Assembly: GCF_035084215.1 (NCBI RefSeq) | Contig: NC_090356.1 | Span: 11,842,001-11,906,000 of the forward strand | DNA from: Heptranchias perlo | Lineage: Eukaryota | Direction: 5' to 3' | Length of the DNA stretch: 64,000 bases | Shown: positions 26,100 to 64,000 of the stretch, in pieces | Position numbering within the stretch: the first letter of the stretch is position 1 | Layout: each line of letters starts with the position of its first letter | Notes under the pieces: model-generated | Told to the model about the DNA's origin: nothing | Seen by the model: only the letters and a program-made list of their open reading frames with translations | Database searches by the model: none | Program-made: the position numbers and the translations under genes

Positions 26100-26294
<195 letters not shown>

Positions 26295-26900
26295 TAGCCT
26301 AAACACTCTTTCTTGGAATCAATGTCCACTCTCATCAGTGTGGTAAGAACAGGTGCTGTTTCAATCTTTTGTCTTAGTCCTAAATGGTGTGGGTCAATTC
26401 TGTCCAGTCATTTGGATGGCTTTACGCTCACCCATTCCATCTCTCCTTGTCTCTTTCAGCCCTCTCTCTTATCTCTCTATCTGATTTCCTCTCTTTCTCA
26501 TTCCCTTTCCTTGTTTCCCTTTCCCCTCTTTTCTCCTTGTTTTTTTTCTATCATTTCCCCTTTCTCTCATTCCCTCTGTCCTTACCTCTCATTCTATTCC
26601 TGTCAGCTTCTATTGAAGTTAGGTAGATCTGACTAGTTGGTTCTAAAATCATTGTTTATCGGTGCAGGAGGACAGGAACCAGTGCAGGGGAAGGTTCCCA
26701 GCTGAGATTGTTCAGAAACTGAGCATCTTCTGTTTTCAATCAGTGCCTGTACATTGTAGACCAGTTCACACGTGATCCTCGGAATCTGCCAGGCATTGTG
26801 ATGCTCCCATTATTTAATTGAAAAACTTCCTAATGTCTGTGAAGTTCACGTTCCCATGCGTGACCCTGTGGTATCCAGGCAGTAGTTCCTCCACTGCACC

Positions 26901-27015
26901 TTTTTTAAAAATTCGTTCATGGGATGTGGGCCTCGCTGGCGAGGCCGGCATTTATTGCCCATCCCTAATTGCCCTCGAGAAGGTGGTGGTGAGCCGTCTT
27001 CTTGAACCGCTGCAG
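26901..27015 (-). mobile_element. 3' tail of an elasmobranch-type LINE/SINE (HER1/HE1-like)
   Basis: Minus strand gggcaattagggatgggcaataaatgccggcc...cacatcccatgaacgaattttt. Confidence 0.6.
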
Positions 27016-27411
27016 AACCTGACTTGCTTCCTGCTGCAGATTTCCACACTGCAGGGTTGTGCTTGTGGCGATAACAGCGGTGTCACTTGCAGCTTGCTCC
27101 TTTGCTGAGATCCGTGTGTGGGTAGCTGAGCTGCACTTCAGCCAAGGGAGGAGTCGCACGCAGCTTTCAAGATGCCAGCTGGCCACCCCCTGCATTGTGG
27201 TGATTTCTCAATCCTTACCTCTGGAAGGGAGGGGAAAACGGAGGGTGAGACACCCTACGCTGTGCAACATGTTGTAGATGTTATTTTGGTTTAATATAAT
27301 GTGCTAGGGGTTACTTCAGTCATTTTAAGTGTACAAGACTATATAAATGAACAAAATGCATTTTTTTCTCTTCTGTCACTTATTTCTATCCAACACTGTT
27401 ATCTTTTCCAG

Positions 27412-27595
27412 GGAAGTACACAGTGATAAAGGGCATTATATCCCCAGTGGGTGATGGATACAAAAAGAAGGGTCTAATAGAGGCACATCATCGTCTAGCT
27501 ATGGTAGAAAAGGCCATAGAAAGCTGTGACTGGCTGACAGTGAATCCCTGGGAAAGCAAACAGGAAGAGTGGGTGGAGACTGCCAAAGTTTTTAG
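27412..27595 (+). CDS. nmnat1: NMNAT1 second coding exon ([22 protein letters not shown]...WVETAKVF)
   Basis: 184-nt exon with ttttccag and gtgagt sites; SPVGDGYKK and WES motifs. Confidence 0.97.
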
Positions 27596-28241
27596 GTGAG
27601 TGAAGCCATGGAAAATTCTGTCAATCCTTTTATCAAAACCATTTTTTTTAAAGATTAATGCTTCTCTTCCCTGTACCTCAATTCCTTCTTAGCCTGTCAC
27701 CATCACACATTCTGCAGCAGCTGGCAGAGTAGGCTTTTCTTATGTGCTGGTACTACTTTGTGGCTTAGACTCTGTAGCGTATTTCTAAGAGGGAGGGCTC
27801 AATTGAAATGCTAGTTGTTTTCTCATTAATGGTCATTAATTGTTGGCAAGCTATTCGACTGCAGTGGGCATCACACCAGAGCTTGAAATCTGTCCTCGCC
27901 TGACACCTGTGCACAAGCACTTTCTGGCAGGATAGTGATCTGGAATGGGAGTGTGGACTGACTTTTCCTCACCTCTCCTGGGCACAGTGAGGCCAACTGT
28001 AGACCCTACACCACTGCTCCAAATCCTAACATTATATGGAGGATTCTCAATCGTTTGAAGAATGAAGAAGAATCTGTGTGGGGGGGAAAAAAAACACGAA
28101 CTTTTCTGGCATTCAAGCTGGAAATTCCTTTTTACAATATCTTGTGAAATCCAACTCGTGTTGAGCCAAGATGATAGGAGCGACCATTTTAAAAAGAAAC
28201 CTTACTATGCTTTCAATGTTGATTTACATTTTTTAAACCAG

Positions 28242-28360
28242 ATATCTTTATGAGAATCTGGAGAACCTCAGTAACAATGAGAAGACGAGCTCGGCGCAAC
28301 GCAGGAGGGGAAAGAAAAGGAAGATAGAAGAAAAAGATGACAACTCACTGGAAGCGAAAG
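28242..28360 (+). CDS. nmnat1: NMNAT1 third coding exon with basic nuclear localisation signal (RRRGKKRKI)
   Basis: Acceptor ttttaaaccag, donor gtgctt; phase 2 to 1; the basic cluster sits where NMNAT1 has its GRKRKW NLS, distinguishing it from NMNAT3. Confidence 0.88.
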
Positions 28361-28891
28361 GTGCTTACGGAGCAGGTGCTATAAACTGTGCAGCTAAATT
28401 GAAATTTATATGAAGTAAACGTGCTGCAAAGAATTAATTTTTAAAAATCTCAAGTACTTAGGATTTCAGGTTGTTTAATGGCAAACTGTTTAAATACTCC
28501 AAAAAAAGCCTACAGCTGAGCTTGATATTATCCTCAAACACGCCTTCCAGCAGGATACACTGTATAGGGAGCAGGAACGCTATAAACCAAGGGATTTTGA
28601 GGCTAATTAAAAGGTCAACATCAAAGGCTCATGCTAGATTCTTATTTGGCCAGTGGGTAGTGTATCTGTGGTGCAATGTCTAAGCTATAAACCCAAAGAT
28701 TGTATTTATAAGCTGCACTAACTAGACCTCGAGGTGAAATGGTTTTTCATTATTGTGTTGACAATCTCAGGAGATTGCTTAAAATTATTTTTTTTGTTCT
28801 CTTGTAAATTGATCTTGAAACCTCCACTGGCCTTTTTTTAATTAATCTAATGGCTCCCCTACATCTAAAGGTCTTGCAGTTTCTTTTACAG

Positions 28892-29307
28892 ACTCTCCTG
28901 AGTTAATGTGCCTCTGTGGAGCAGATGTTCTAGAATCTTTTGACATTCCAAACCTGTGGAAAAAAGAAGACATTGAAGAGATTGTGGGGAAGTTTGGTGT
29001 CGTGTGCATCAGTCGACATGGAAGCAATCTCGAAAAATGTATTTACGAGTCTGACATCCTCTGGAAGTTCAGGAAAAATATTCATCTTGTAACCGAATGG
29101 ATGAACAATGAGATCTCGGCCACAAAGGTCCGTCGAGCTTTGCGAAGGGGACAGAGCGTTAAATACGTGATACCTGATTCAGCCATTGAATACATTCAAA
29201 AGCATCATTTGTATGATCCACGCAGTGAAGACAAGAACTCTGAAGTTATTTTAGCACCTTTGCAACGTTACATGAAAGAATCCAATAGTAGTTCAGTACA
29301 GTGTTAG
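28892..29307 (+). CDS. nmnat1: NMNAT1 last coding exon ([17 protein letters not shown]...[18 protein letters not shown]...)
   Basis: Acceptor ttcttttacag; CGAD and ISATKVRRA motifs; total spliced CDS 837 nt = 278 aa plus stop. Confidence 0.97.
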
Positions 29308-31004: not shown

Positions 31005-32020
31005 AGAATATTTATTGATACATCTTGTTGATTTTAGCAAAGAAGAAGTTATAGGGGCCTACAACCTTGCACAAGCATTGCTTTTTGTAAAAAAAAAATG
31101 GATTGTCCTGCAATAGGGTTGAGAATCATTGGGAAATACAGTAAATTATTAATTGATTGCATTTGAAATAGACGATTAGGGCAGGATGCCATCCATCGAA
31201 ATCCAGTGGCACCTTCTCCCCACTCCTGATGACGTGGACTGCATTCACATTCCACAGGTTTAACGTTGGTGCAAAGCCAAAACAACTTCACTCCAACACT
31301 AAAGTGGGAATGTGAATTGGGGAGGCCAAGGCCCAAAGTGACGTCAAAGTGAAACTCCAGGGAGAATGGGGAAAAAAAAAAATCAAAGAGAATAAAATAT
31401 TCCAGTTGCCTCATAGTTCTACTCAATATCAGATATGTTGAGATCAAAACAGAGTTCTCCTTTCAATACCATGTGATTTTTGCAGAGGAAGACAAAGTGC
31501 TTCAATGTAAACATGTTTTTCTCGTTGTTTATTAGTCCTGACTTCACAGCCAGGAGAGCAGGTCTGAATTGCCTTGTTACAGGATTATGAACCTTACCCA
31601 ACAGATATGTTTGGGGGTGATTACTAATTGTGTGTCAGTTTGGCTCAGTTAGTAGCACTCTTTTACATCTTAGAAGGTTATAGGTTCAAGATCCGCTCCA
31701 GGACTTGAGCACAGAATCCAGGCAGAACTGAGGAAGTGCTGCAAGGTTGGAGGTGCTGTCCTTTTGATGAGATGTTAAACTGAGGCCCCATCTTCCTATT
31801 CCAGTGGTTCAGGTGAATGTTAAAAATCCCATGGAGAGTAGGGAGATCTCCCAGGTGTCCTCACTAACATTTGTATATCCACCCAAAACTGGTTATTCAT
31901 CTCATTACTGTCTATTGGGATCTTGCTAAAGGCAAATTGGCTGTGTTTACCTGTAGAACAGTTACTTTAGAACGCTGTAGCCTTGATTCTCCCACCTGCG
32001 TTCCCAGCAAGTGTGGCTTG

Positions 32021-32419
32021 CCATTGGAAGGGTGGGATAGAAGAATTAGTCCTCATATCGCCATTGGAAGGGTGGGATAGAAGAATTAGTCCTCATATCG
32101 CCATTGGAAGGGTGGGATAGAAGAATTAGTCCTCATATCGCCATTGGAAGGGTGGGATAGAAGAATTAGTCCTCATATCGCCATTGGAAGGGTGGGATAG
32201 AAGAATTAGTCCTCATATCGCCATTGGAAGGGTGGGATAGAAGAATTAGTCCTCATATCGCCATTGGAAGGGTGGGATAGAAGAATTAGTCCTCATATCG
32301 CCATTGAAAGGGTGGGATAGAAGAATTAGTCCTCATATCGCCATTGGAAGGGTGGGATAGAAGAATTAGTCCTCATATCGCCATTGGAAGGGTGGGATAG
32401 AAGAATTAGTCCTCATATC
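32021..32419. repeat. Minisatellite, 40-bp unit x10
   Basis: CCATTGGAAGGGTGGGATAGAAGAATTAGTCCTCATATCG repeated head to tail; one G>A variant in unit 8. Confidence 0.98.
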
Positions 32420-47134: not shown

Positions 47135-47207
47135 ATGTCTGTGGATTTCAATGGTAGCTGGAACATGATCAGCAATGACAACTTTGAGCCTTACATGCAA
47201 GCACTGG
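47135..47207 (+). CDS. rbp7: RBP7 exon 1 (MSVDFNGSWNMISNDNFEPYMQAL)
   Basis: 73-nt coding exon typical of cellular retinol-binding proteins; GxW motif; donor gtgagt. Confidence 0.95.
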
Positions 47208-48614
47208 GTGAGTGTAAAATATTTCTGTAGACATATCATGGAAGTGGAATCCAATTGCAACTTCCTAGGTAATTCGGTAACAATTTTTTGCCAACATAAA
47301 ACATAAATTTATTTCCTTTCATCAGGGAATGAGAGTTTTGGGGTTTGGAAATTCTTTCTGGTGCCTCCTTTCCCCGTTACCTCACAAGTAATGGTGTTGT
47401 AAATAACGTGAAATTAAGGTGCTCCAGCTAATCTGCTAAAAGGGAACGTGTAATATGAATTTTAAAGAGCAGGCAACTTTTTAATTTAAGAACATAAGAA
47501 ATAGGAGCAGGAGCAGGCCATATGGCCCCTCGAGCCTGCTCCGCCATTTAATAAGATCATGGCTGATCTTTGACCGCATCTCCACTTTCCCGCCTGATCC
47601 CTGAATTTTGTTCATGAACTCAAGTAAACGGTGGATCACAACTTCGAAATTATTGCCATTTGCCCATGATGCTCTATGCAGTAGCTATCCACTAAAATAA
47701 CGTCCTAAAATTTAATTCAGTTTACTCCTCAGTTCAAAGTTGCTTAATTCAAATGATTTGGTCATTCAAATTGTTAACACTAAATTCCCATTATTTACAT
47801 TACTTAATTCAAATTATTGGATAGTTCCAGGGATGAGGGACTTTAGTTTCGTGGAGAAGCTGGGGTTGTTCTCCGTGGAACAGAGAAGGTGAGAGGAGAT
47901 TTGATGGAGGTATTTAAAATTATGAAGGGTCTGGACAGATTAGATAGAGAGAAACTGTTCCCATTGACGGAAGGATCAAGAACCAGAGGGCTTAGATTTA
48001 AGGCGATTGGCAAAAGAACCAAAGGTGACATGAGGAAAAACTTTTTTACACAGCGAGTGGTTAGGATCTGGAATGCACTGCCTGAGGGGGTGGTGGAGGC
48101 AGATTCAATCATGGCCTTCAAAAGGGAACTGGATAAGTACTCAAATTGATTTTGAATTATCAGGAGAAGACTATCAACCAATATTCTTCTGCAGAGGTAC
48201 CTGGCGTTAGTGCTTACTGAGGGAATTCTACCGTTAAATTAAAATTCAAGCTTGATTAGCTCCGATAATGTTTGTTTCTCACACGTTGTTTTAGCTGTTG
48301 CAGTGTTTCAGACATTTCTTCTGAACTGCACTGTGAGGACACAGTTGGATGCCAGTATAATTTTATACACGGCAGCTGTGTGCATGAAGTCTAAATTTAG
48401 CCTGTCAGCTGGTGACAGTACCAACTGTGAACGTTCTCTACCAGTTTTTTCCAGCAGGTTAATTCCTAGTGGGAATTGAAGCTCTGGTGAATGAATTTGC
48501 GGTTTATTGTGGAGATGCCACTGGGTTTAGTATTTTGTATTCTTCAATGGAAACTTGGTAAAAAAATTATTTTTGTTAACGACCTGAGACAATGGAATTT
48601 GTCATCTATTTGTT

Positions 48615-49830
48615 ATAGAATTTTTTGATGAGGTAACAGAGAGGGTCGATGAGGGCAATGAGATTGATGTGATGTATATGGACTTTCAAAAGGTGTTTGA
48701 TAAAGTGCCACATAATAGGCTTGTCATCAAGATTGAAGCCCATGGAATAAAGGGGGCAGTAGCAGCATGGATAGAAAATTGGCTGAGTAACAGGAAGCAG
48801 AGCGTAGTGATGAACGGTTGTTTTTCGGATTGGAGGGAGGTGTACAGTGGTGTTCCCCAGGGTTTGGTACTGGGACCACTGTTTTCTTGATATATATTAA
48901 TGACTTGGACTTGGGTGTACAGGGTACAATTTCCAAATTTGCAGATGACACAAAACTTGGAAGTGTAGTGAACAGTGAGGAGGATAGGGATCGACTTCAA
49001 GAGGATATAGACAGGCTGGTGGAATGGACGGACACGTGGCAGATGAAATTTAACGCAGAAAAATGCATTTCGGTAGGAAGAACGAGGAGAGGCAATATAA
49101 ACTAGAGGGCACAATTCTAAAAGGGGAACAGAGAGATCTGGGGGTATATGCACACAAATCGTTGAAAGTGGCAGGGCAGGTTGGGAAAGCGGTTAAAAAA
49201 GCATACGGGATCCTGGGCTTTATAAATAGAGGAATAGAGAACAAAAGCAAGGGAGTCATGATGAACCTTTATAAACCACTGGTTCGACCACAACTGGAGT
49301 ATTGTGTCCAGTTCTGGGCACCGCACTTTAGGAAAGATGTGAAGGCTTAGAGAGGGTGCAGAAAAGATTTACCAGAATGATTCCAGGGATGAGGGACTTT
49401 AGTTTTGTGGAGAAGCTGGGGTTGTTCTCCTTGGAACAGAAAAGGTGAGAGGAGATTTGATAGAGATATTTAAAATCATGAAGGGTCTGGACAGATTTTA
49501 TAGAGAGAAACTGTTCCCATTGGCGGAAGGATCAAAAACCAGAGGGCTTAGATTTAAGGCAATTGGCAAAAGAACCAAAGGTGACATGAGGGAAAACTTT
49601 TTTACACAGCGAGTGGTTAGGATCTGGAATGCACTGCCTGAGGGGGTGGTGGAGGCAGATTCAATCATGGCCTTCAAAAGGAACTGGATAAGTACTTAAA
49701 AGGAAAAAACTTGCAGGGCTCTGGGGATAGGGCGGGGGAGTGGGACTAGCTGGATTGCTCTTGCATAGAGCCGGCACGGACTCGATGGGCCAAATGGCCT
49801 CCTTCTGTTTGGTAACCATTCTATGATTCT
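48615..49830 (+). mobile_element. CR1 LINE (RT C-terminal part to 3' end) in rbp7 intron 1; partial second copy at 47826-48140
   Basis: DFQKVFDKVPH, GVPQG and KFADD RT motifs with frameshifts; TTCTATGATTCT tail. Confidence 0.92.
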
Positions 49831-50069
49831 CCCTCCATCTTCAAATGATCCTCTCAGATTCCGCATAGTAAATCTGAGGATGCAGTTCATTTTGTGTCTT
49901 TGCTCCTTTTAATTATGAAGATTGAATTAGGGGCTGTGACCTTTGTCTTTTTTTTAACACCCCCCCCACCCCCAAAATGTAAGTATAGCATTTGTTCTTA
50001 TCAGGGTTTTGGATGTTAGTAACAAAAACAGAAAATGCTAATGCTGGGAATAGAACATTTTCAGTTTCC

Positions 50070-50420
50070 GGCACCCAGTGTCAAGCACCAAGTAGTCCCG
50101 GGTCAGATTAGAAGTAGAATAAAGGTCCCTCCAATCTCCCATTGTGCTTCAGCCCCAAACTCAGAAGAACATCCCTTGCTGCACCAGTATGGCATTTATT
50201 TGCCCTGAGCGAGTTTGCTAATTAATGCCATATTAGGGGCAGTTTTGTGCTGAAGTCCTGCATCCACCAGGAATTGGTTTGAGAGTGCTCAAACCCACTT
50301 CAAGTAAACTCCTTGCAGCCAACAGATGGGGGAGACTTTATCCCATCGGGCTGGGCTGGATTTGAACTCCCAGATCTAGAGGTAAAAGGCTAATTAACCC
50401 AGTGCACTACCCAGTTCCCT
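50070..50420 (-). mobile_element. LF-SINE-like element in rbp7 intron 1
   Basis: Minus strand gccttttacctctag...gttcaaatccagcccag...ccatctgttggctg...ccaattcctggtgga resembles the recalled LF-SINE consensus. Confidence 0.5.
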
Positions 50421-51147
50421 AGCCACTCAACAGACCAGTTATGCATGTCTTTGCCAGCTGGATAGTTATAACCATAATTATTGCAATGTATTGCATGTTA
50501 ATTTTATATTGTTGCTTTACAAGATTGTTTCTTGTTCTTGCTATACACAAACATTTGCTTAGATATTCTCTCCATCGAGCACAATTTGGAAGAGGTTAGT
50601 TGATTTGACATGGACAAAGATTCTCTAGTTTTCAACTTTTGTTTGATTATCTGAATAAGCTGACAAGAGCTTTGCTAGGACATTACTACCGTGTGAATGG
50701 GATTCCACCTTTTATTTGCTGGAGGGTTTTATCATGGAATCCTTGATAATAAAAAGTTTCTTGGCCAAAACATCTCGCTGTAAAGTTTTTAACCTACATT
50801 ACCATGTTGATGTACTCTTGTAATCCATCTTTTTTGAAATGTCAAGAAGGTAGAGCGTTCCTTATCTTTCTCTTCAGTTTTCTCCGAACAATGTTGACTC
50901 ATTCTTGTGTGGCGGTTTTCCTGTAGTACTTGTCCTAAATGGCATGTACTCATGTAAGCTTGAGTGGTGAGTGTCGGCAGGCTATTTAACTGCAAGGGGA
51001 ATCACAGCCATTGCTGTCCTCACCTGCTGTCTATACACGTACAGTTTTTGAAAATCTCCAGATTTTGGGGGATCTGAATTCAATTTGCTTCCTCAGTTTA
51101 AAAGCTGGCTAATTTGGCATGAAAGCTTAACAATGTTCTCTTGACAG

Positions 51148-51326
51148 ATATCAACTTTGCTACTCGTAAGATTGCTGTTCTTCTGAAACCTCAGAAGATT
51201 ATTGAACAGAAAGGAGATTCATTCATTATCAAAACAAATAGCACATTCAGAAACTATCATGTCCAGTTTACAGTGGGAGAAGAATTTGAAGAAGATACAA
51301 ATGGTTTAGATAATCGCAAATGCAAG
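51148..51326 (+). CDS. rbp7: RBP7 exon 2 (DINFATRKIAVLLKPQK...GLDNRKCK)
   Basis: 179-nt exon with ttgacag and gtgaga sites; STFRNY and GEEFEED motifs. Confidence 0.96.
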
Positions 51327-53157
51327 GTGAGAGATCAATGCCTGTCAGTAAGATTGCTGTGGGATAATTATGGTGGAAGTGAAATGACCACTTGTTAGAG
51401 GAAATAAAAAAGCTTAAATCTTGTTTAAGTTTTCCATCCAAGTCACAGAGGATGATGGGATGGAAATGGTCTGTCCATATTCCTTGTACCCATCTTCTCT
51501 GCAAACTTGCCAGTTTTTCTTCTTTCAATGTCTCTTGATCAGTTTTTGTATTTGCAATGAAGGCTGAGTTTCCTTATACACTTCAAACTCTTTCTAATAG
51601 CTTCAACAAAATGTACATTCCATCACATATTGCCTGAATGATTCAAAAACAAGGATATTGAGGCTTTCTTTAAAATTTACCTTTCTACTGGTTCATAAAT
51701 CCTACACAATAATTCAGAGATAAGCCTCACCGTATTGTCTCTTACAAACTCTGCACACATGATAGAAATTACAGCACAGTAGGATGCTGTTTGATCCATT
51801 CTACTGGTGCTAGCTCTTAATTGGAGTTACTCTATTCCCACTTGCTTGCTCTATACCCATCTATATTAAAAATCTTACATCTGCATGCATTTCCTTTCAA
51901 CTTTTTTCCATTGTAATTTCCTTGTCCACATTTACAATGTGTAAGTAAACTTGTCATGCTGTAATTACTCTCTCGAGTGGAAGTTCTGCATCACCATCAC
52001 TCATGGGAGGATATAATTATGGTGCTAAGGTTTACATAGGCAGTTTCCATTACAAATGTGGACATAAAAAATTATAATGGGAAATATAAAAATGTTATGC
52101 TTATGCTCCCTGGTCCAATTATCTTCAGCTCTCTGTCCCCCCTTCAGCTGAAGATTATACTTGGTCTTGACTCCCCACGCGCAACCTTGAGAGATAAATA
52201 ATATATTTAAAATCGTGCGTCTGTACACACCTGTCAATATTTTTCATTCATAAACTCCTACATCCGCAGTTATAATGGAAAGTGCCTTTGTAAGCTCATG
52301 TAATTTAATTGTAAACTGCTTTAATTACTCTCGTCGTGATGCTACAGCACTGCCACTGGCAGGAAGGTGTAATTGCAGCATGATAAGTTTATACTGGCAG
52401 TCTCCATTCTAAGTGTGGGCATAGGCATTTGTATTGGACATATAAAAAGAACATATTGTATGACTTTAAAATGGGGACTGAATTATGTCTGTGTGCCCTG
52501 CTCTAATTATCCCCCATCCTTTAACCCCACTTCACCTGAAGGCTATAACTCCCTGGGATAGATCTTGACTTTGTGCGATAGTGTAATACGGGTGACAGCT
52601 AGTCGGCTGCTTCTTTTACTTCTCTCTCCCTGTGTGCAATGCTATCGGAGATCGACTGCTACCTTTTTTATATTCTTCCTCTTCAAATGCATCTCAATTT
52701 TTGTTAAACGATGCAATAGTCTCTGCTTCAATAGCCACTTGAAGTAAAGCATTCCATGTTCTAATAGACTTGTTTTAAAAATATTGTTCTAACTTTCCTT
52801 TTCATTCTTCTCATGATCATCCAGAGGAAATGGCCCCTTGTTAGTAATTTGCCAACCAGTGGAAACAATCCTTCATTGTTTACCCTCAAAACCTTTCATA
52901 ATTTTGAGAACCTACGTGATTCCATTCCTGAATCCTCTCTGTTCAACTAAAAAGACCCCCAATCTTATGAGCCTTTCTTCATGATAGTAACCTCACATTC
53001 CTAGTATTCTATCGAACCTATGCTGTATCCTTGGCTGTAATATTCTCCCCATAATGGGATGCCCAAGATTGCATTCAGTACCGCAACTGCGGCTTAATCA
53101 ATGTCTGTGCTGGTTCAACATCACTTCCTCGCTTTTGTATTCAAGGCCTCCAGGCAT

Positions 53158-53222
53158 ATGTATGTATGTGTGTGTATGTGCTTGTGTATATGTGTGTGTG
53201 TGTATGTGTGTGTGTGTGTGCG
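53158..53222. repeat. (TG)n microsatellite
   Basis: Imperfect TG run about 100 bp upstream of rbp7 exon 3; (CT)n tracts also occur at ~10949, ~13627 and ~13776. Confidence 0.9.
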
Positions 53223-53318
53223 TATATTTATGTCACTCAACATCTATTCCAATTAGGCTGTAAAATCCAATAAGTATGTTTAGAAAAATGAGTTTTGATG
53301 ATGCCTTTCTTTATGCAG

Positions 53319-53420
53319 AGTCTCGTTACATGTGACAACAACAAACTAGTATGTGTGCAAAAAGGAGAAAAGAAGAACCGAGGATGGACCCACTGGGTAG
53401 AGGGCGATGAACTGCACCTG
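53319..53420 (+). CDS. rbp7: RBP7 exon 3 ([34 protein letters not shown])
   Basis: 102-nt exon; WTHW with His at position 108 is RBP7/RBP5-type; synteny with nmnat1 supports rbp7. Confidence 0.95.
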
Positions 53421-54362
53421 GTATGTTCTCTAGAGGATACAGAAAACCAATAGATCACTTTATAAGCAGCCATGCTCATGAAAATTTGTGTAATAGTAAG
53501 CCATTTGGTTGACATTCATTCTTCTCTCTATTCTGTGCAACATTAACCAGCCTGGCTCCCTATTCCCAGAATTCTGCCAATGTAGCCCTTGATCTGGATA
53601 CTTACAGGTGTATGAGCGGATTTTTTTTTCCTTTGTATCCTTATTTCCTTCCTTCTTCCCCCCCGGCCCCCCCCACCCAACATTCTGAAACACATGGTTG
53701 GAACTCTGGTCTACACCATTAATGTGCCGATCTGAAAGAAATCCTGTCGCTTTAAAATTTCATTCATTCCAGAGGAGAGAGATTTGGTGAGTAATTGTTG
53801 CAGCAAAAGCTTGTTCTGTTGCTCAAAATTCTAAATTAGACTGTTGCAATTGTCGAGAGACAAATGCTTTATATCAAACAAAAGTCATCCGAAGTACAAT
53901 TTTAAACCTGAACTGTTGTCTTGGTAAATTCTCAGAAAAGCCAAATCTCGCCCAATTAGGTTCTCTTGAATTGGATTCCTATCACAGGTTATGACTGAAC
54001 AGTTTGAAGGTATTGTAAGGGTTAATCAGACTGACTTGATGTGCTAAAGTTATATTGCTATTAATTTGACCTTATATTATAATAATAGCTTTTAGTCTTT
54101 GTTAAATACCGAAGTGTGATTCTTAAATTGTAATATCTTTAAATAGTTACAAGTATGCTAAGATGGTGACCGCTGAACGTTTGAACTGAAACTGATGCTT
54201 ACAGCACCGACAGTTTTAAGATGGAATGACCACCTGTTTAATGAGACGTTAATTGGAGATGTTGCATTGCATTATCTCCAATTATATATATCACAGTCTG
54301 AGCAGTTGAGTATTGATAACGCTGCTTGTGGCCATTAGCTTACAGAATTTCTTTCTCTCTAG

Positions 54363-54422
54363 GAACTCTGCTGCGAAAACCAAATCTGCAAACAAGTTTA
54401 TAAGAAAGTGTCCAAGGCATAA
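54363..54422 (+). CDS. rbp7: RBP7 exon 4 (ELCCENQICKQVYKKVSKA*)
   Basis: Acceptor tttctctctag; CKQVYKK C-terminal motif; total CDS 414 nt = 137 aa plus stop. Confidence 0.93.
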   Translation, partial: ELCCENQICKQVYKKVSKA

Positions 54423-55597
54423 AAGGGTGAAGATGTCAAATGCAAGGCCTATTAATTTACAGCTGGTGATTTCTTCTAAATTTTAGGGCTGCCTTTCTTC
54501 AGTGAATTTTCAAAAGTGGCATAATTTATCCATCACTCACAGGTTTCAAGTAAGGCTATTCTTGTTACCACACTGTGATAAAGAAGCATATTTGAGATAT
54601 CTTTGCGTTTTGTATTATTGAAGAATCAAGGTACTCAGATGGTCAGTGTGGATCTGGTACAGGATATATAATTACCTTGACATTCCCATTATGGTGACAT
54701 TACACTCTTGGAATATAGTTGTCTGTTGGGAAACTATTGTATGGAAAATCATTGTAGAAGTGTAGGCAATTATGTTACATATGTGAGAATCTGACAACCA
54801 TAAAGGATTAGCAAAGCAATATGTGTCCTGTGTTTTTTTTACATAACTTCAAAATTATTCTTTCTTCTCCCATCCAACTCTGTAGGGAAAAACATTTTAA
54901 TAGTTTTTCTTCCTCTTGTGCTGGTAAGAAAATATTTCAACTTTTCTCCCACCCATTTTCCTGCTCTGCTTAAAGGGGACAATGAACAGGGCTCTGTTTA
55001 TTTTAGGCCAAAATCATTACCCACTTCTCTTATTACAAGTTTTACAAAGGGAGAGTATGACATGCTCTAAAGCTCATAACTTTCCCCATCCAGAGTCCTA
55101 GTTTTCACGCACAGCAAATTTAGCAATGACCCAGCCATGGTGGAGGAGTCAAACCTTAAGAACAAAGGTCTAGCAATATATCGATATTACAGTCCTGACA
55201 TATTTCATGTTCTCAACACTCTCCCACTTGTCTTGTTTAATGGCACAGGTAGTAAGTGTGGGGAGATTTTTCTCTTTCCAGTACCGTGTATAAGGATTTT
55301 AAAAGCTGTTTGTTAACACCGATGTAAAAGCTCGGGGGTTTTCAAGTGTTCTATTTTTAGCATTTAAAAAGCAAGAAGAATTTAGACCATAAAACAAACC
55401 AGAAAATTTGAAAATCAGTGCTTATTTGGAACAAGATTAGAATTCAAGAAAACAACCCAGGGACTTGGATAGGGGAGTAATCAAACTGCTTTATTCATGA
55501 ACATAGTTATTGAAACTCCCAGTTGTATGAGGCAAAATTAATCTAGAAACAATGCTGTCACCTAGAGGTGAAAGCATAGTGTTAACCCATAGTTCCA

Positions 55598-55637: not shown

Positions 55638-58600
55638 TTTAAAATAAATTTGTTGGACTATAACTTGGTGTTGTAAAATTGTTTACAATTGTCAACCCCA
55701 GTCCATCACCGGCATCTCCAGATCATTCCTTCAGTTGAGCACAGTAAACTGCTGTAAAACTGTTCAATATGCCTTTTTTTTTCAGACAGAAGCCTCCAAT
55801 GCAGCACTGATTTTACAAAGTATTTAAAAGTTATTGGGATGTTTCCCAACTCAACTTTGTGGTGCTTGCTGCAGAAATTGGCTTTGAGGTGCAATATTAA
55901 GTGACCTTATGGTTTATTAATTATTATAATTTATGTAGTGCTGTCTCTTGATCCCTAATCGGCATTGAGTTAGCTAAACTCAACTGGAGAAGTATTCCAA
56001 ATGGACTTCCTGATCCCAGTTACAAAGACAGACATCAGCCAGGACTCCTGCTCATGATCACTGTGACCTCTGCTGGAAAAGTAGAGGGTGTATGCATGTC
56101 AGGTGAGGACAGAGTCAGGTTCATGTATGCTGCCACCCATGGTTGAACGCTGACAGTGACTAAATAAGTTGCTATCTGGAGGCGGTAGGGCAGGCCTACC
56201 ATAGACTGTACACCAGCAAGAGTCAACGCTTTCAGAAGAAAAGTCCAAAAAAAACACTTGCTGGAATCGGGTATTGGATCAAAGTCCCATCACTGGTTGT
56301 ATAAGGTATTGCAGCATTTTGGCACCACCCTGAACATTTATTTTTGACAATCTACTTGTCAATTTCTACTAGATTTTGTATAAATGAAACTAATTGACCA
56401 TTGATCTCCATGTGTTTAGCTTGTGAACCGGGATATTAGGAAGTAAATTATTGCAATTTGCCCCATAGTCACTAATGGTGAGAAAAATGGTCACCCTGAC
56501 TATTCTTTAGTTTTCTCCCCTTTCCTAACTCCCTCGGTCACAACTCTCAGTTGAGAGTTTTTCACGCTCTGCTCAAGCTATGGTCCATTTGAAATCTTGC
56601 TCCGCTCGACTAGGCCCAGCCATTTACCTCTCTCTGCACCGGTCAATTCTTGCGTTCTTGTGCCAATTTCAAGTCACCTGACTACTCACGGGATCACACC
56701 CTTATTTCCTTTACTTTAATTGCCTCCTATTTAGACCCTGTCTTCCGGCAAAGATACTACGCCCCCAAACTACTCTATCACACCCTAGTTAATTAATGAA
56801 GTTACTTCAGCCTTTGCTCACTTCAGACACAGTTGAATGAACAAGTGTTCTCCTTAGAGCGTAGAAAGTTAAGAGGAGATTTGATAGGTGTTCAAAATCA
56901 TGAATGCTTTTGATAGATTAAGCAAGGAGAAACCAGTGGCAGAAGGGTCAGTAACCAGAGGACACAGATTTAAGGTAATTGGCAAAAGAACCAGAGGCGA
57001 CATGAGGAAAAAAAATTTACGCATCGAATTGTCATGATCTGGAACGCACTGCCTGAAAGGGTGGTGGAAGCAGATTCAATGGTAACTTTCAAAAGGGAAT
57101 TGGATAAATACTTGAAGGGGAAAAATTTGCAGGGCTGTGGGGAAAGAGTAGGGGAGTGGGACAATTTGGATAGCTCTACCAAAGAGCCGGCAAAGGCACA
57201 ATGGGCCGAATGGCCTCCTTTTGTGCTGTATCATTCTATGATTCCAAATACTAAGACTAACCATATGGAAATACAAGTACAGATATACAATTACAATACA
57301 GCAAAAGGTATACATGAACTATACAATACAATGGAAGACGATACAGATGCTCCATGCACGCATATTACTCCAGTAAAACAAAAATTTGTTCACTCTCTCA
57401 GTCACAATGCCCAGTTGTGAGACCTTCACGCTTGAGCCACAGTCTGCTTGAAGCCAGTTAGCATGCTGCAAATGGACTCAGTGTCCCTGGGCTAGAGAGG
57501 GGAAAACAATCAGCCAGGGTTCCTGTCCATGATCACTAGTGCCCCCAGTACCTGCTAACACTCACTTTCTAGGCCTGAACAACTGAAGAAAGACTAGTCG
57601 GTGAAGGGAATGGGTGGGGCTGATGGTGTCTGTGGAACCATACCCAGCAAAGTCAGTGTCTTTAGGCAGGTGGGGAGAGGAGAAAGATGTCATTGGAGGA
57701 AATAACTTGACAAACGCATTTAAATCAGATGACGGAATCTACTCAGCTCGGCTGCATTTTTAAAAATTAATTTTCATTAAAAAAAAGTCCTTGAGGTGTT
57801 CAATTTTGTAAATGCTCAGTTATTTTGCACATTGGTAAATAATCGAACCAATATAATTTCCGCAGTTTCTTCCTGCTAAAATGACGTTTCTTGAAGTCGA
57901 GTATTAACCAGTCCTGTTCTGCTGGTACTTGAAGCTAATGTTTACCGAGGGAATTCAAGCATTAAATTATAATCCAAGCTCAATTTGCTCAAGAATGCCT
58001 ATTATTCATGTGATGTTTCAGCTGTTATTTTGTTTCTGATGTGCCTTTTAAACTGCACTGTAAGGGTACAGTTGGATGCCAGTAGGTTTATACAATAGCA
58101 GCTGTATGCATGAAGTCTAAAATTAGCCTGTCAGTTGGTGGCAGCACCAGCACTGATTAGGATATTGCTCTGTGGTAGAGAATGTTTCTGCGCTGAATGT
58201 TCTCTACCAATTTTCTGTGGCAGTGACACAGAAACCGACTTTCTGGTGAATGAATTTGTGGTTTATCGTGCCCCTGAAATTATTAATGGAAATGGCAATG
58301 GATTTAGTGTTTGTACACTTGAAGGGCAATTCTTACATACCTGAGATGATAAGGTTTGTGATAGAATCATTGGATTTTACGGAGCAGAAGGCCATTCAGC
58401 TCATCATGCCTATACCGGCTCGCTAAGAGAGCTTTCCACTTATTCCCACTCCCCTGCTCTTTTCTTTCTACTTTCTTAGTTTTAAAATATTTATCCACTT
58501 CTTTTTTTAAAGCTACTATGAATTCTGCTTCTGGTTTATCAAAACTTCTCCTAAAGCCTCTGTTAAATTTCCCCGAAATCTTCTTTGTTCCAATGACGAG

Positions 58601-58739
58601 AGCCCCAGTTTCTCTAATCTCTTCTCATAACTGAAGCCTAGCATCTATGCTACTGATAGGAAAAGCCCCAAATGCATTGTTCTTCTCACCTCGCTACCTG
58701 TTCTTGTTCCTGACATTTCTTAAAGGGGCAGCCAACACG

Positions 58740-60450
58740 ATTTCAAATGGGACAGCTCCTGCCTGTCAAACTTCCTTCACTTTTTTGAGGAAGTGACATC
58801 TCAAATGAACATTGGAAAGCCTACACTTCCAGAAAGCCTTTGATACAATTCCACATGAAAGGCTGCTACCAGAAGCTTACAGAAGTAAAACTTGGAGGTG
58901 GGTAACGGATTGGCTGAGAGAGGCGAAGTAGTGAGTACCAAAATAAAAACAGAAAATGCTGGAGAAGCTCAGCAAGTCAGGCAGCATCTGTGGAGAAAGA
59001 AACAGAGTTAATGTTTCAGGTCGAAGACATTTCGTCAGTAGTGGGTACTAGTTAGTAGAGTGATATCAGGCTGGGGAGATGTACTGAGTGTGGTTTTTGA
59101 TTTATATGAATGACCTGGATTCAGAAACTCAATGTAAGTTTGTCAGATTCACAGAGGATACTAAACTAGGCAATTGCAATTTTAAATTGTAGGCGGCAAG
59201 AACACCCGTCCGAAGCCAGAGGTCCTTCTGTAAATATGCAGATCGAGCTTCAAAGATGCCATTGGGGTCTAACTGCAATATTAACCTGAGGCCTGAGCAG
59301 GGAGCAGTGATGACGTCCACGCTAGGTCAAAGCTGTCAGGAAGTGGATCCAGAAGCCAGAAGAGGCCACAAAAAGGTAAGTTTTTAAGAAGTCTTTAAAG
59401 TTTCCCTGTGGGCCAAGAGGAGCAGGAGTGCTCCTCTGGGCCCCACAAGGAAACCTTGGGCCTCCCCTGCCCTCAATTTCCCTCCCCCTACCACAATCAT
59501 GATCCCTGTTGGGCCCCCCTCCTGAAGACTTACTTGAGTGGCAGCACTCCACTCAGAACGTCCCCTTACCCCAACATAACTCCTCTAACTAGCATCCCTT
59601 GTTTTCTACCCATCAGCTAGGTTCTTATCCATTCCCAAGATTTACCCTGAATCCTAGTAGTCTTTCATGTGGAACTTTCTTGAATGCCTTTTAGAAGGCT
59701 AGATACATCGTGTTGAATTGTCACTTCCTCAAACAAGTCTAGGAGGTTTGTCACGCAGGATCTTCCTCTTTTAAAGCCATGGGATAAATATTATCTATCC
59801 CATGGGATTTATTTGCAGGATACAGGGGTTGACCACGTAGTTCAAATGAGAAGAGGTTGGGTAGTAATTGTAGTGAGGGGTGGTAGGAAGGGGAAGGGAT
59901 ATTGGGAATGTGAAAGGGTAGGCAATGGGAGTGGGGGAACTACGTGATTGAGATGGGGATAGGAACGAAGCCACTGAGGGCCACATTTTTCTTGCACCCT
60001 CCACCCCAGAAGTAGCCTGCTTCCATCAACGTCTCCTTTCCCCGCCACACCATGTCATGCCACCCTTCACCCTCAAACTGAAAGGAATGAAGAAAAAGAC
60101 AGAGAAAGAGAGACAAAAGTAGAAGAGGAGAGACAGAGACAAACAGCAACACAAAGACAAGAGATAGTTAGAGAGAGACCATATTCTCTACTTACTGGGG
60201 GGACATATTTAATGAATGGTATTGAACTAGCTGGGGAGAAACTGAAAAAGGTCTGGGAGTGGCAGTAGACTCAACTCCAACAATGTCCAGTCATTGCAAA
60301 TCAACGATTAATACAGCAAACAGAATGCTGAGCTATATCGCCAAATCAGTCCAATTTAAGCCTGATGCTGTTATGTTGAAACTGTAAAGTGCTCTTATCT
60401 GATTGCAACTTGAATGCTGCATTCACTTTTGGTCACTGAAGTAAAAGGAA
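58740..60450 (+). mobile_element. Old CR1 element, fragmented by nested insertions, where duplicate exons 2-3 would be expected
   Basis: Decayed RT motifs (ttttttgaggaagtgac, ttccagaaagcctttgata, gttgaaactgta); contains Penelope-like, Harbinger-like and inverted CR1 pieces. Confidence 0.6.
58940..59040 (-). mobile_element. Penelope-like terminal repeat fragment with a degenerate hammerhead motif
   Basis: Minus strand CTGACGA-AATGTC-TTC-GACCT-GAAA-CATT followed by ctccacagatgctgcctgac...ccagcattttctgttttt; a more decayed copy lies at ~12845-12942(+). Confidence 0.6.
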
Positions 60451-60924
60451 GCATGTGCCTAATGGCTAATGTATTGGACAACACTGCTCTAAAGGACACT
60501 GAGTACCAGAAATCATTTTATAGCCATCGATCCTTGTGAATGTTTGTGGACTAGGAGGCCATTTGGTTGTTGACTTAAAAAAAAAATTCAGTGTAACAGT
60601 AACCAGTCTGGTTAAATCTTTCCAGACTTCTGTCAATGTCGCCCTTGAGCTGGATACCTGGAGGTTTATGAGCAGACTTTCTTATCCCCACTTTTTGTCT
60701 TCTCCCAATTTCATTCACTCCCAGAATAGTGAAATTTGGCTAGTGATTGTTTTTAGTAGGAACATGTTCTATAGCCTTAAAAACCTAATTAGACTGTTGT
60801 TATTGTTGGCAGGCAAATGGTTTTCATCATTCCTATAAAGCTGCAAGGTTAGACACCTCAATATTCACGGTCACATTCAAAATTGCCAAATTTTACCCAG
60901 TTTGATCCTCTTGGATTTTCTAAG

Positions 60925-61905
60925 TATCATAGAATCATAGAATGGTTACAGCATAGAAGGAGGCCATTCGGCCCAATGAGCCTGTGCTGGCTCTTTGTAA
61001 GAGCAATCCAGTTAGTCCCATTCCCCCGTTCTTCCCCCGTAAAGTTTTTCCTCATATCGCCTTTGGTTCTTTTGTCAATCGCTTTAATTCTGTGTCCTCT
61101 GGGTCTCGACCCTTCCGCCAATGGGAACAGTTTCTCTTTATTTACTTTATCTAAACCCTTCATGATTTTGAACACCTCTATCAAATCTCCTCCTAACCTT
61201 CTCTGTTCCAAGGAGAACAACCCAAGCTTCTCCAGTCTATCCACATACCTGAAATCCCTCATTCCTGGAACCATTCTAGTAAATCTTTTCTGCATCCTCT
61301 CTAAGGCCTTCACATCCTTCCCAAAATGCGATGCCCAGAATTGGACACAATACTCCAGTGTTTTATAAAGGTTCAACATAACTTCCTTGCTTTTATACTC
61401 TATGCCTCTACTTATAAAGCCCAGGATCCCTTATGCTTTTTTAACTGCTTTCTCAACCTGTCCTGCCATCTTCAAAAATTTGTGCACATATACCCCCAGA
61501 TCTCTCTGTTCCTGCACTCCCTTTAGAATTGTACCATTTAGTTTATATTGCCTCTCCTCATTCTTCCTGCCAAAATGTATCACTTCGCACTTCTCTGTGT
61601 TAAATTTCATCTGCCACGTGTCCGCCCATTCCACCAGCCTGTCTATGTCCTCTTGAAGTCTATCACTATCCTCCTCACTGTTTACTACACTTCCAAGTTT
61701 TGTGTCATCTGCAAATTTTGAAATTGTGCCTTGTACACCCAAATCCAAGTCAAAAAGAGTGGTCCTAGCACCGACCCCTGGGGAACACCACTATATACCT
61801 TCCTCCAGTCTGCAAAACAACCGTTAACCACTACTCTCTGTTTCCTGTCACTCAGCTAATTTCGTATCCATGTTGCCACTGCCCTTTTATTCCATGGGCT
61901 TCAAT
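60925..61905 (-). mobile_element. CR1 LINE fragment inserted in the duplicated rbp7 intron 3
   Basis: KFADD and LERMQKRFTRM ORFs; atcatagaatcatagaa tail on the + strand. Confidence 0.9.
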
Positions 61906-62405
61906 ATGTTACAACACAGGAGGCCATTCGGCCCACTGTGCCTGTGCTGGGTTGTGACAGAAGGGTAGTACACTGCTCCATTGGAACTTCAGATCAATAC
62001 TAAACTTGTCATTCTGTGAGGGATATTTTCCATGTAGCTGTTGGCAATCTTTGATTTTTACTTTGTTTATAGATGTTTATCTTGTGGACCTGATTTCATG
62101 CTGCTTGAAGCTATTCTAAAATCCAAAATATAAATACAAGAACACTCAGATTATCAGTGCTTTTGCAGAGATTCACTGGAATTTACTGAAGAGTTAAATC
62201 GCTCAGGAAATGTCAACAGTTAGCCAATGGACCAATTAAGTTGATTTACTCAAAAGGAAAGAAAGTACTGTAAAGGCTTTGTGGACTTAATGTACTGGCT
62301 GCACCTGCTATAATGATATTAATATTTGCTACATTCTAGGCGGGTGAGTATAGACAGGACTGATTTTGGCAATTAGCTTACACCATTTTTCTCCTTTCTT
62401 CCCAG

Positions 62406-62465
62406 GAAGTCCACTGTGCAAATCAAGTCTGCAAACAAGTTTATAAAAAGATTGCTAGGCCATGA
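62406..62465 (+). CDS. Duplicated rbp7 terminal exon 4' (EVHCANQVCKQVYKKIARP*), possible alternative last exon
   Basis: Intact pyrimidine tract plus cccag acceptor; same phase and length (60 nt) as exon 4; 11/19 identical residues. Confidence 0.6.
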   Translation, partial: EVHCANQVCKQVYKKIARP

Positions 62466-64000
62466 AAGTGTAAAGATGCCAAGTGTGATTTCTATTGATA
62501 TGGGGCTGTCTTTGTTCAGTGAAGATATCAAAAGATGCACAGTTTAGTCATCAGTAACTAGGTTAAAGTTATTCAATAAGAACACTTCACTGGGAGAACA
62601 GCTTATCTTTTTGCATTCTTATTGATGAGGAATTGAGATACCCGGATATTTAGTGTGGATCTAGTCCAGGGCATGAAATTGACTTGACATTCCTGCTATT
62701 GTGATTGCACACTCTTTGGGTAGGTGGTTACAACCATATTCCAGTCTGTGGACCTATTACAAAAATATTATGTGGGAGTTCATTGTACAAAAGGAGATAC
62801 CTGTATGTGAAAATTTGATGGCCATAAAGGATTAGCACAGTAATATTTTCTTCCATTCGTTCTGGTGCCACTCAAGAATTCTTCTTTCTTCCAGGAAAAA
62901 CAATATAGCTAATCCTAGAGAATCTCTTTCTCCTTGTCAACTGAGAAAACATTTCCACTTTCCTGTTAACTCACCTTGTGCTTCTACTGGCTTTCTAACT
63001 AACCTAAATACTGTCCTACCTGTAGGAGGAGGAGTGAATAAGGCTCTAGCTAGTGCCAAAATTTTGAGGTGATCTACTTCTCCTACTGAATCAAATGCTT
63101 ATTTTGCAATCTAGTGTGGGGAGAAAGACAGTCAGACTTTGCACAGGGAAAGAGCGTTTTGCTCTAAAGCCGATACTTTCTCCACCCTGAATCCCACTTT
63201 TCAAATACAGTAAATCCAGCATAATACATAGGCTGCAAATTTGTAAAACTGTAGCGCATCAATGCTTGAGGAGTGAAACCCTGAGAAGAATATTCACGGA
63301 ACTTACCAGTATTGTTACAGCCCCAAGTGATGACATGTCTCAACACGCGCTCCAACTTGTTCTCTCTACTGGTACAAGTAGAATTTGTTTTATTCTATTT
63401 TTAGCATTGTGTGGGTTGAGCTTTTTTCATTTATTATGTGCCGAGGTATGTCATTATCAACCTGATTTATCACAATATAAGCCATTAATGTGTCACCGTG
63501 TACTTCCACTTCAGCTGTTGAGGTACTGAACAGGGAAATATTTGGCTCATTTGTGCAACATAGAAAAGTATGCAGCTGCTTAAGTCAAAAGCAAATGCAA
63601 ACAATTCCTTTTGTAACCTAGTACAATTTGCTAAAGGGAAAATGTCCTACGTAAATGATGATCACAAGTGAGCAAAATGGTTGTCCAGGTGAGTGGCTTA
63701 GGAATTCAGGAAAGTTATACAGATGTGGATTGGGCAAATCTGTTGAATCTAAGTGAGCTTCAGTAAATGTGTCATTTAACTAGATTTAAATTTAGCCTCA
63801 ACTTCAAATGAATGTGGATTTCCACAATGATTTGCCTATGGAGCTGCAGTACAGTATAACTCGCATGTTTTATTCCAGTTAAACAGACCTCCAATTTTTA
63901 AATTGAGGAATCCTTCATTAAACATCCAAGTATGATGGACTAGTTGAAGGAAAACAGTGCTTGATGTCCATCTAACCTAGATTTAAGTAGAAATAGTTTG

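What the first reader, a model, noticed from the sequence alone, without database searches (positions are those of the whole stretch)
57890..63410. Decayed rbp7 tandem duplicate leaves an intact alternative terminal exon
Seen: collinear paralogy to rbp7 intron 1, intron 3 (starting within a few bases of the exon 3 donor), exon 4 and ~1 kb of 3' sequence. Exons 2-3 are absent, with a CR1-rich block in their place. Exon 4' keeps a strong acceptor, phase, length and stop, with mostly conservative changes (L/V, I/V, V/I, K/R) although the flanks are full of indels. Inference: either a formerly functional rbp7 paralog later deleted, or exon 4' is now spliced to exon 3, giving RBP7 isoforms with swapped final beta-strands and 3' UTRs.
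Basis: partly seen in the sequence, partly recalled or inferred. Interest (0 to 1): 0.7.

Follow-up and report, generated by a model that had tools for sequence, protein, structure and literature searches.

The report
Decayed partial copy of shark rbp7
An old, broken second copy of part of a shark's vitamin-A-binding-protein gene (rbp7) lies just behind the working gene; its last exon is still readable but has diverged as much as the non-coding DNA around it, so it is likely an unused relic rather than an alternative protein ending.

Summary
Behind rbp7 (nmnat1–rbp7–ube4b locus) lies a collinear, same-strand partial copy: intron 1, intron 3, exon 4 and about 1 kb of 3' flank, 69–76% identical. 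No trace of exons 1–3 was found, and nested retroelements fill the gap. Exon 4' (62406–62465) keeps a strong acceptor, phase, length and stop.

Exon 4' is no more conserved than its flanks (73% vs 71.5%). Weak constraint is not excluded: it fits the sequence 3–11 times better than pure neutrality.

RNA contigs from one sample join exon 2 to exon 4 across an exon-3-sized gap. Both annotated isoforms, and all 13 cartilaginous-fish proteins compared, end in an exon-4 type.

Verdict: likely an unprocessed-pseudogene fragment (0.7); a rarely used alternative last exon 0.22. The scan noted similar decayed exon copies on other DNA (TMOD1, RING2).

The parts
47135..47207 (+). rbp7 coding exon 1 (ATG to phase-1 donor)
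   Evidence: start of protein P0002
48073..48196 (+). alternative first exon of annotated isoform X1, mostly CR1-like repeat; its last ~34 bases overlap the start of paralogous segment A
   Evidence: P0017 residues 1-41 match 48073-48195 at 100%; GT donor
48163..48605 (+). rbp7 intron-1 stretch paralogous to copy segment A
51148..51326 (+). rbp7 exon 2 (no copy in the duplicate or elsewhere in the genome search)
53319..53420 (+). rbp7 exon 3 (no copy in the duplicate)
53428..53987 (+). rbp7 intron-3 stretch paralogous to copy segment B
54363..54422 (+). rbp7 exon 4 coding part plus stop, used by spliced RNA contigs and by both annotated isoforms
57893..58362 (+). copy segment A: decayed intron-1 copy (a short upstream extension at 57848-57887 reached by 4 of 500 shuffles)
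58363..60486 (.). nested retroelement block where the rest of intron 1, exon 2, intron 2 and exon 3 would lie
60487..60932 (+). copy segment B: decayed 5' part of intron 3
60912..61950 (-). younger antisense CR1-like insertion in the copy's intron 3
62406..62465 (+). exon 4': 19 open codons plus stop behind an intact acceptor; 44 of 60 bases and 11 of 19 residues identical to exon 4
62466..63412 (+). decayed copy of the rbp7 3' UTR and flank

Best explanation
This is the remnant of an old tandem duplication of rbp7 in which exons 2 and 3 are gone and no exon 1 is found, and its surviving last exon is likely an unused relic that drifts neutrally while rbp7 transcripts splice exon 3 to the original exon 4. 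Shown: the collinear copy, the missing exons, the retroelement fill, canonical splicing in RNA contigs and exon divergence equal to that of the flanks. Inferred: unequal crossing-over made the duplicate, a deletion tied to the retroelement insertions removed its middle, and transcripts mostly end behind exon 4, about 8 kb before exon 4'. Also inferred: the exon stayed open by chance, helped perhaps by an early period under selection.
For: Exon 4' matches exon 4 at 44 of 60 bases (73%); the flanks match at 71.5% over 1715 columns, and 42% of 1479 non-coding 60-column windows do as well or better. It differs at 8 of 19 residues, whereas 12 shark and ray proteins differ from exon 4 at 3-6 and the chimaera protein at 7, although the introns still align at about 70%. 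L>V at position 2 and E>A at position 5 occur in 0 of the 122 anchored homologue proteins (of 143 held). Simulations give a neutral copy 5.8-7.8 differences on average, P(>=8) = 0.21-0.56. Constraint throughout (omega 0.2) gives P(>=8) = 0.003-0.008. A neutral copy keeps acceptor, frame and stop in 8-17% of runs, and in 14-34% if it was constrained for the first quarter to half of its life. The copy contains intron 1 and intron 3 sequence, so it is a gene-scale duplicate, not a single-exon one. One contig in X1 (depth 137) and one in X2 (depth 421) join exon 2 to exon 4 across 103 letters, the size expected for exon 3, with 0 mismatches (one sample). The protein cluster for this gene has 2 members and both end in exon 4.
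Against: The acceptor is stronger than exon 4's own (18 vs 14 of 19 pyrimidines) and the branch-like CTTAC is kept. The longest identical run of the whole duplicate (19 bases) lies in the exon, and the three residues invariant among homologues are kept. Nei-Gojobori dN/dS is 0.27, on only 10.5 synonymous sites. Under pure neutrality P(intact and profile score >= observed) is only 0.007-0.021, and an always-intact exon with omega 0.6-0.8 has 3-11 times the likelihood of the neutral model. This is before allowing for the fact that the feature was picked because it is intact. The only contig in 62000-64000 (163 bases, depth 2.1, unspliced) lies in the copy's 3' UTR equivalent; intronic pieces of like depth also occur.
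Confidence: 0.7

Rival explanations
1. Exon 4' is a rarely used, weakly constrained alternative last exon. In some tissue, read-through transcripts skip exon 4 and splice exon 3 to exon 4', giving RBP7 (or NMNAT1-RBP7) a changed last hairpin of strands and another 3' UTR.
For: Intact phase-compatible acceptor, branch-like site and stop. Relaxed-but-intact models have likelihood 0.09-0.33 against 0.03 for neutral. A 16-base identical run holding a CATAAA hexamer near the 3' end of the canonical contigs is kept in the copy (its role as poly(A) signal is untested). One low-depth contig lies on that part of the copy. C-terminal swaps are enriched among human tandem-exon substitutions, 77 of 236 (PMC9741552, passages). 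The locus already makes read-through transcripts in other vertebrates (PMC4664474, abstract and section 21).
Against: Strong constraint is rejected. Two substitutions are unseen in 122 homologues. The spliced contigs listed and both annotated isoforms use exon 4. No protein among 182 anchored (of 208 held) matches exon 4' at more than 13 of 19 residues.
Confidence: 0.22
2. A complete second rbp7 existed until recently or still exists, and its exons 1-3 are missing only from this assembly or haplotype.
For: The intron-3 match starts within 7 bases of the exon-3 donor, a neat edge. Long reads could not be checked.
Against: The window has no N. The gap is filled by old nested repeats rather than a join. 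Genome searches with exon 2 (8 matches) and exon 3 (3 matches) give only rbp7 itself, an rbp2-like and rbp1-like pair on C13 and more distant family members. No second rbp7-like protein from any cartilaginous fish is among the 120 listed of 313 hits. At 70-76% identity the copy cannot be a falsely duplicated haplotype.
Confidence: 0.04

Closest known systems
Unprocessed (duplicated) pseudogene fragment next to its parent gene (class recalled, not from a call)
   Same: Adjacent, same strand, intron-containing, collinear; exons lost; retroelement insertions; divergence compatible with neutrality.
   Different: Its one surviving exon has no inactivating lesion and keeps a strong acceptor.
Tandem exon duplication-derived C-terminal substitutions (Martinez Gomez et al., PMC8373072: abstract and sections 6, 16; PMC9741552: passages)
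   Same: A homologous terminal exon of 8 or more residues lies downstream in the same phase and could replace the last exon.
   Different: Those are annotated, mostly ancient and conserved across species, and the catalogue discards exons that belong to a neighbouring paralog or pseudogene. Here the exon sits in a gene-scale duplicate, no transcript with it was seen, and it has diverged quickly.
RBP1/RBP2 tandem pair (here C13, about 48 kb apart)
   Same: Tandem duplication of a cellular retinol-binding protein gene; the nmnat-rbp neighbourhood of rbp1 is described in PMC4664474, section 21.
   Different: Both of those copies keep exons 2 and 3. The rbp7 copy lost them, and it still aligns with its parent in the introns.
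NMNAT1-RBP7 read-through fusion (PMC4664474: abstract and section 21)
   Same: Same locus; non-standard splicing across gene borders.
   Different: It concerns the 5' end, and is shown by RT-PCR and conserved from fish to mouse. The parts read do not mention a second last exon.

Membership tests
Tandem exon duplication-derived C-terminal substitution (PMC8373072) | Homologous coding exon of at least 8 residues in an equivalent position and phase | tested here: met
   19 codons, 11 identical residues, phase 0, AG acceptor
Tandem exon duplication-derived C-terminal substitution (PMC8373072) | A transcript that uses the duplicated exon in place of the original | tested here: inconclusive
   Canonical join seen; both annotated isoforms use exon 4; contigs of one sample cannot show absence
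Tandem exon duplication-derived C-terminal substitution (PMC8373072) | [quoted passage not shown] | tested here: not met
   It lies in a copy that also holds intron 1 and intron 3 of rbp7
Tandem exon duplication-derived C-terminal substitution (PMC8373072) | Both exons conserved across species (typical of the class, section 16) | tested here: inconclusive
   13 of 13 cartilaginous-fish C-termini compared are exon-4 type; no DNA of related sharks was available
Tandem exon duplication-derived C-terminal substitution (PMC8373072) | Strong purifying selection on the alternative exon (expected of a functional member; my criterion) | tested here: not met
   P(>=8 differences) 0.003-0.008 at omega 0.2; weak constraint not excluded
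Unprocessed pseudogene fragment | Intron-containing collinear copy of a parent gene | tested here: met
Unprocessed pseudogene fragment | Disabling loss: cannot encode the protein on its own | tested here: met
   No exon 1, 2 or 3 copy
Unprocessed pseudogene fragment | Neutral evolution of the remaining coding sequence | tested here: inconclusive
   Residue changes fit neutrality, but the intact frame favours weak constraint 3-11 fold
Unprocessed pseudogene fragment | No functional product | not testable with these tools
   Needs raw multi-tissue RNA reads or proteomics
RBP7 (cellular retinol-binding protein IV), parent gene | Best matches are RBP7; four coding exons; nmnat1-rbp7-ube4b order | tested here: met
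   (top structure 6at8, E 5.7e-64); nmnat1 exons at 26148-29295 and ube4b from about 20 kb past the window end

The most novel reading that the evidence does not exclude
The last exon of a deleted rbp7 paralog has been captured by its neighbour as an alternative terminal exon. A shark would then make two RBP7 (and NMNAT1-RBP7) forms that differ in the last beta-hairpin, including the residue matching human M119, and in the 3' UTR: a dead gene recycled into an isoform of the survivor.
Probability: 0.2. Interest if true: 0.45.

Novelty: new member of a known kind. Interest (0 to 1): 0.17.

Why it matters
As a relic it matters little. It records an undescribed, old rbp7 duplication in a shark and may serve as a phylogenetic marker. 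It is also a worked warning that a 60-base exon stays 'intact' by chance about one time in ten at this divergence. If junction reads were found, it would be a clear case of a pseudogene's last exon being recruited as an alternative ending in a small beta-barrel lipid-binding protein.

Tried and rejected
RNA: the run search on 62300-63400 gave 'no RNA holder listed' (3 runs, one sample, kind guessed). The strict lay of X1-X3 on 62000-64000 placed 1 contig in X1 and 0 in X2 and X3: none on exon 4', no joints, no loose ends. Contigs drop rare variants and a filter omits some records, so this absence is not counted as evidence either way. The depth of 0.82 in the exon-4' bin of X2 at 85% likeness vanished at 90%. 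In one search the joint table was crowded by repeats (262 rows not shown), so a weak 53420-to-62406 joint could have been hidden there.

A relic of exon 3 just before 60487 looked possible by eye but scored at shuffle level (266 of 500). No exon 1, promoter or distal intron-1 copy was found. No further rbp7 exon copies appeared in 80 kb downstream.

One search was translated one base out of frame and is not used; the correct frame is. The script stopped early, and only its printed rows are used.

Dating: the epaulette-shark rate of 7e-10 per generation (PMC10587355, passages) would give over 2e8 generations per branch, too many to take literally. I only infer that the duplicate is old.

Literature: 'rbp7'+'shark' (10 papers) and a four-term search (10 papers) listed nothing on this locus by title or abstract start. 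That covers the held open library only, and no supplements were read. PMC9741552 has 0 hits for 'rbp' or 'fabp' in its main text; its supplementary lists were not seen. Of PMC9013439 only the abstract and outline were seen.

Left out of the 13-protein comparison: P0004, P0019 and P0007 (C-termini without the exon-4 motif), P0020 (same end as P0018) and P0021 (no RBP7 part). No structure was predicted for a swapped isoform.

Full report
Locus. The window lies on G000:C35. The gene at 47135-54422 has four coding exons. Its exon-2 translation matches P0002 at 100%; the source labels P0002 'retinoid-binding protein 7a isoform X2 [Heptranchias perlo]', on a contig of the same length as C35. Its best solved-structure match is RBP7, 6at8. 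nmnat1 exons lie upstream (26148-29295) and ube4b exons begin about 20 kb beyond the window.

Observation. Self-comparison shows three collinear same-strand segments behind the gene: intron 1 (48163-48605 ~ 57893-58362, 76%), intron 3 (53428-53987 ~ 60487-60932, 72%), and the end of intron 3 with exon 4 and the 3' flank (54284-55289 ~ 62322-63412, 69% outside the exon). In the own genome each copy segment finds only itself and rbp7, so these are not dispersed repeats as far as that search can tell. Over 1715 non-exon columns identity is 71.5%, K2P distance 0.37, with 51 gap events (local alignment biases identity upward). Exons 1, 2 and 3 have no counterpart above shuffle background. Genome searches with exon 2 and exon 3 give no second rbp7: the next hits are an rbp2-like and rbp1-like pair on C13. 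The stretch 58363-60486 is a nest of retroelement pieces ('CR1' is my recalled label). Exon 4' starts at 62406 after a CAG with 18 of 19 pyrimidines and has 19 codons plus a stop.

Is the exon under selection? It matches exon 4 at 44 of 60 bases, the same level as the flanks, and 42% of 1479 non-coding windows match as well. Its gap-free block is the 4th longest of 54; 10.5% of non-coding 60-column windows are gap-free, and only the copy's branch was free to take gaps in the exon. At the protein level, 12 shark and ray RBP7 ends differ from exon 4 at 3-6 of 19 positions and the chimaera's at 7, while exon 4' differs at 8. Two of its changes (position 2 L>V, position 5 E>A) occur in 0 of 122 anchored homologues. 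Position 2 aligns with M119 of human RBP7; that this residue lines the ligand cavity is recalled, not tested. A profile score puts exon 4' below all 115 homologue peptides in-sample and at or above 4 of 75 in leave-one-out, some of which look mis-anchored.

Simulations used present exon 4 as stand-in ancestor and uniform omega. A neutral copy gives 5.8-7.8 differences on average and stays fully intact in 8-17% of runs. Constraint at omega 0.2 throughout gives 8 or more differences in under 1% of runs. A copy constrained for the first quarter to half of its life fits about as well as or somewhat better than pure neutrality (likelihood 0.032-0.061 vs 0.031-0.032).

Results against the relic reading. 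dN/dS is 0.27, on 10.5 synonymous sites. The acceptor and branch-like site are well kept, and the longest identical run (19 bases) is in the exon. P(intact and score >= observed) is 0.007-0.021 under pure neutrality. An always-intact exon at omega 0.6-0.8 has likelihood 0.09-0.33, 3-11 times the neutral value. Sequence alone thus rejects strong selection but cannot separate a relic from weak constraint. Part of that margin is ascertainment, since the feature was flagged for being intact.

Expression. Three runs of one sample, guessed RNA and kept as contigs, were available. In X1 and X2 a single contig (depth 137 and 421) carries exon 2 and exon 4 with 103 letters between. That is exon 3's 102 bases once the listed piece borders are allowed for, and there are 0 mismatches (the exon-3 piece itself was not among the rows shown). 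So canonical splicing is shown. The strict lay over 62000-64000 placed one unspliced 163-base contig of depth 2.1 at 62706-62868, in the copy's 3' UTR equivalent; an intronic piece of depth 2.9 occurs, so this is at background level. The lack of cover elsewhere is listed under Tried and rejected and not weighed. The protein cluster of this gene has 2 members, X1 and X2, both ending in exon 4. Among 182 anchored C-termini of 208 proteins held, none matches exon 4' at more than 13 of 19 residues; one search listed only 120 of 313 hits, and 90% clustering hides members.

Mechanism. Most likely an old unequal crossover duplicated at least intron 1 to the 3' flank of rbp7 (inferred). The copy's middle was then deleted and replaced by retroelements (loss shown, order inferred). 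Without a detectable exon 1 or promoter, and behind the parent's 3' end, the remainder has decayed. High-depth contigs end near 54740-54810, about 7.6 kb before exon 4'. The edge 7 bases from the exon-3 donor is unexplained; it may be chance, or a breakpoint inside decayed exon 3.

Comparison. It would work like a C-terminal tandem-exon substitution if used (PMC8373072, abstract and sections 6 and 16; PMC9741552, passages). It fails that catalogue's exclusion of exons that belong to a neighbouring paralog or pseudogene, and it shows no strong constraint. It fits an unprocessed pseudogene fragment. The known splicing novelty at this locus is the NMNAT1-RBP7 fusion (PMC4664474, abstract and section 21). 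Two searches of the held library listed nothing on a shark rbp7 duplicate. Two earlier scan notes on other genomes describe similar decayed exon copies (unchecked), and no look-alike of this stretch was indexed.

Verdict. The feature is real and ordinary: relic 0.70, rare alternative last exon 0.22, misassembly 0.04. Interest 0.17.

Noticed in passing
window 48073-48196: Annotated isoform X1 (P0017) starts in an exon made mostly of a CR1-like repeat end plus about 50 unique bases, replacing exon 1. It would lack the first strand and helix of the barrel (inferred).
   Followed up: partly
window 53331-53333 (exon 3): The tryptophan found at this position in 156 of 169 anchored homologues is a cysteine in this rbp7 (2 of the 3 C counts are this gene's own isoforms). 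Whether RNA agrees at this base was not visible.
   Followed up: partly
window 26148-29295 to 47135-54422: nmnat1 lies directly upstream of rbp7. NMNAT1-RBP7 fusion proteins are annotated in many sharks and rays, including P0023, which joins early nmnat1 sequence to rbp7 exon 2, much like the zebrafish protein P0201. Known (PMC4664474).
   Followed up: partly
window 47825-48145 and 49381-49700: Two CR1-like pieces within rbp7 intron 1 are 95.6% identical over 321 bases, suggesting a recent local duplication or conversion.
   Followed up: no
window 54798-54813 and 62822-62837: A 16-base identical run with a CATAAA hexamer is shared by the rbp7 3' UTR and the copy, near where the canonical contigs end. 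No AATAAA occurs before 55643.
   Followed up: partly
window 32020-32419: Near-perfect tandem array of five 80-base units, downstream of the nmnat1 exons found.
   Followed up: no
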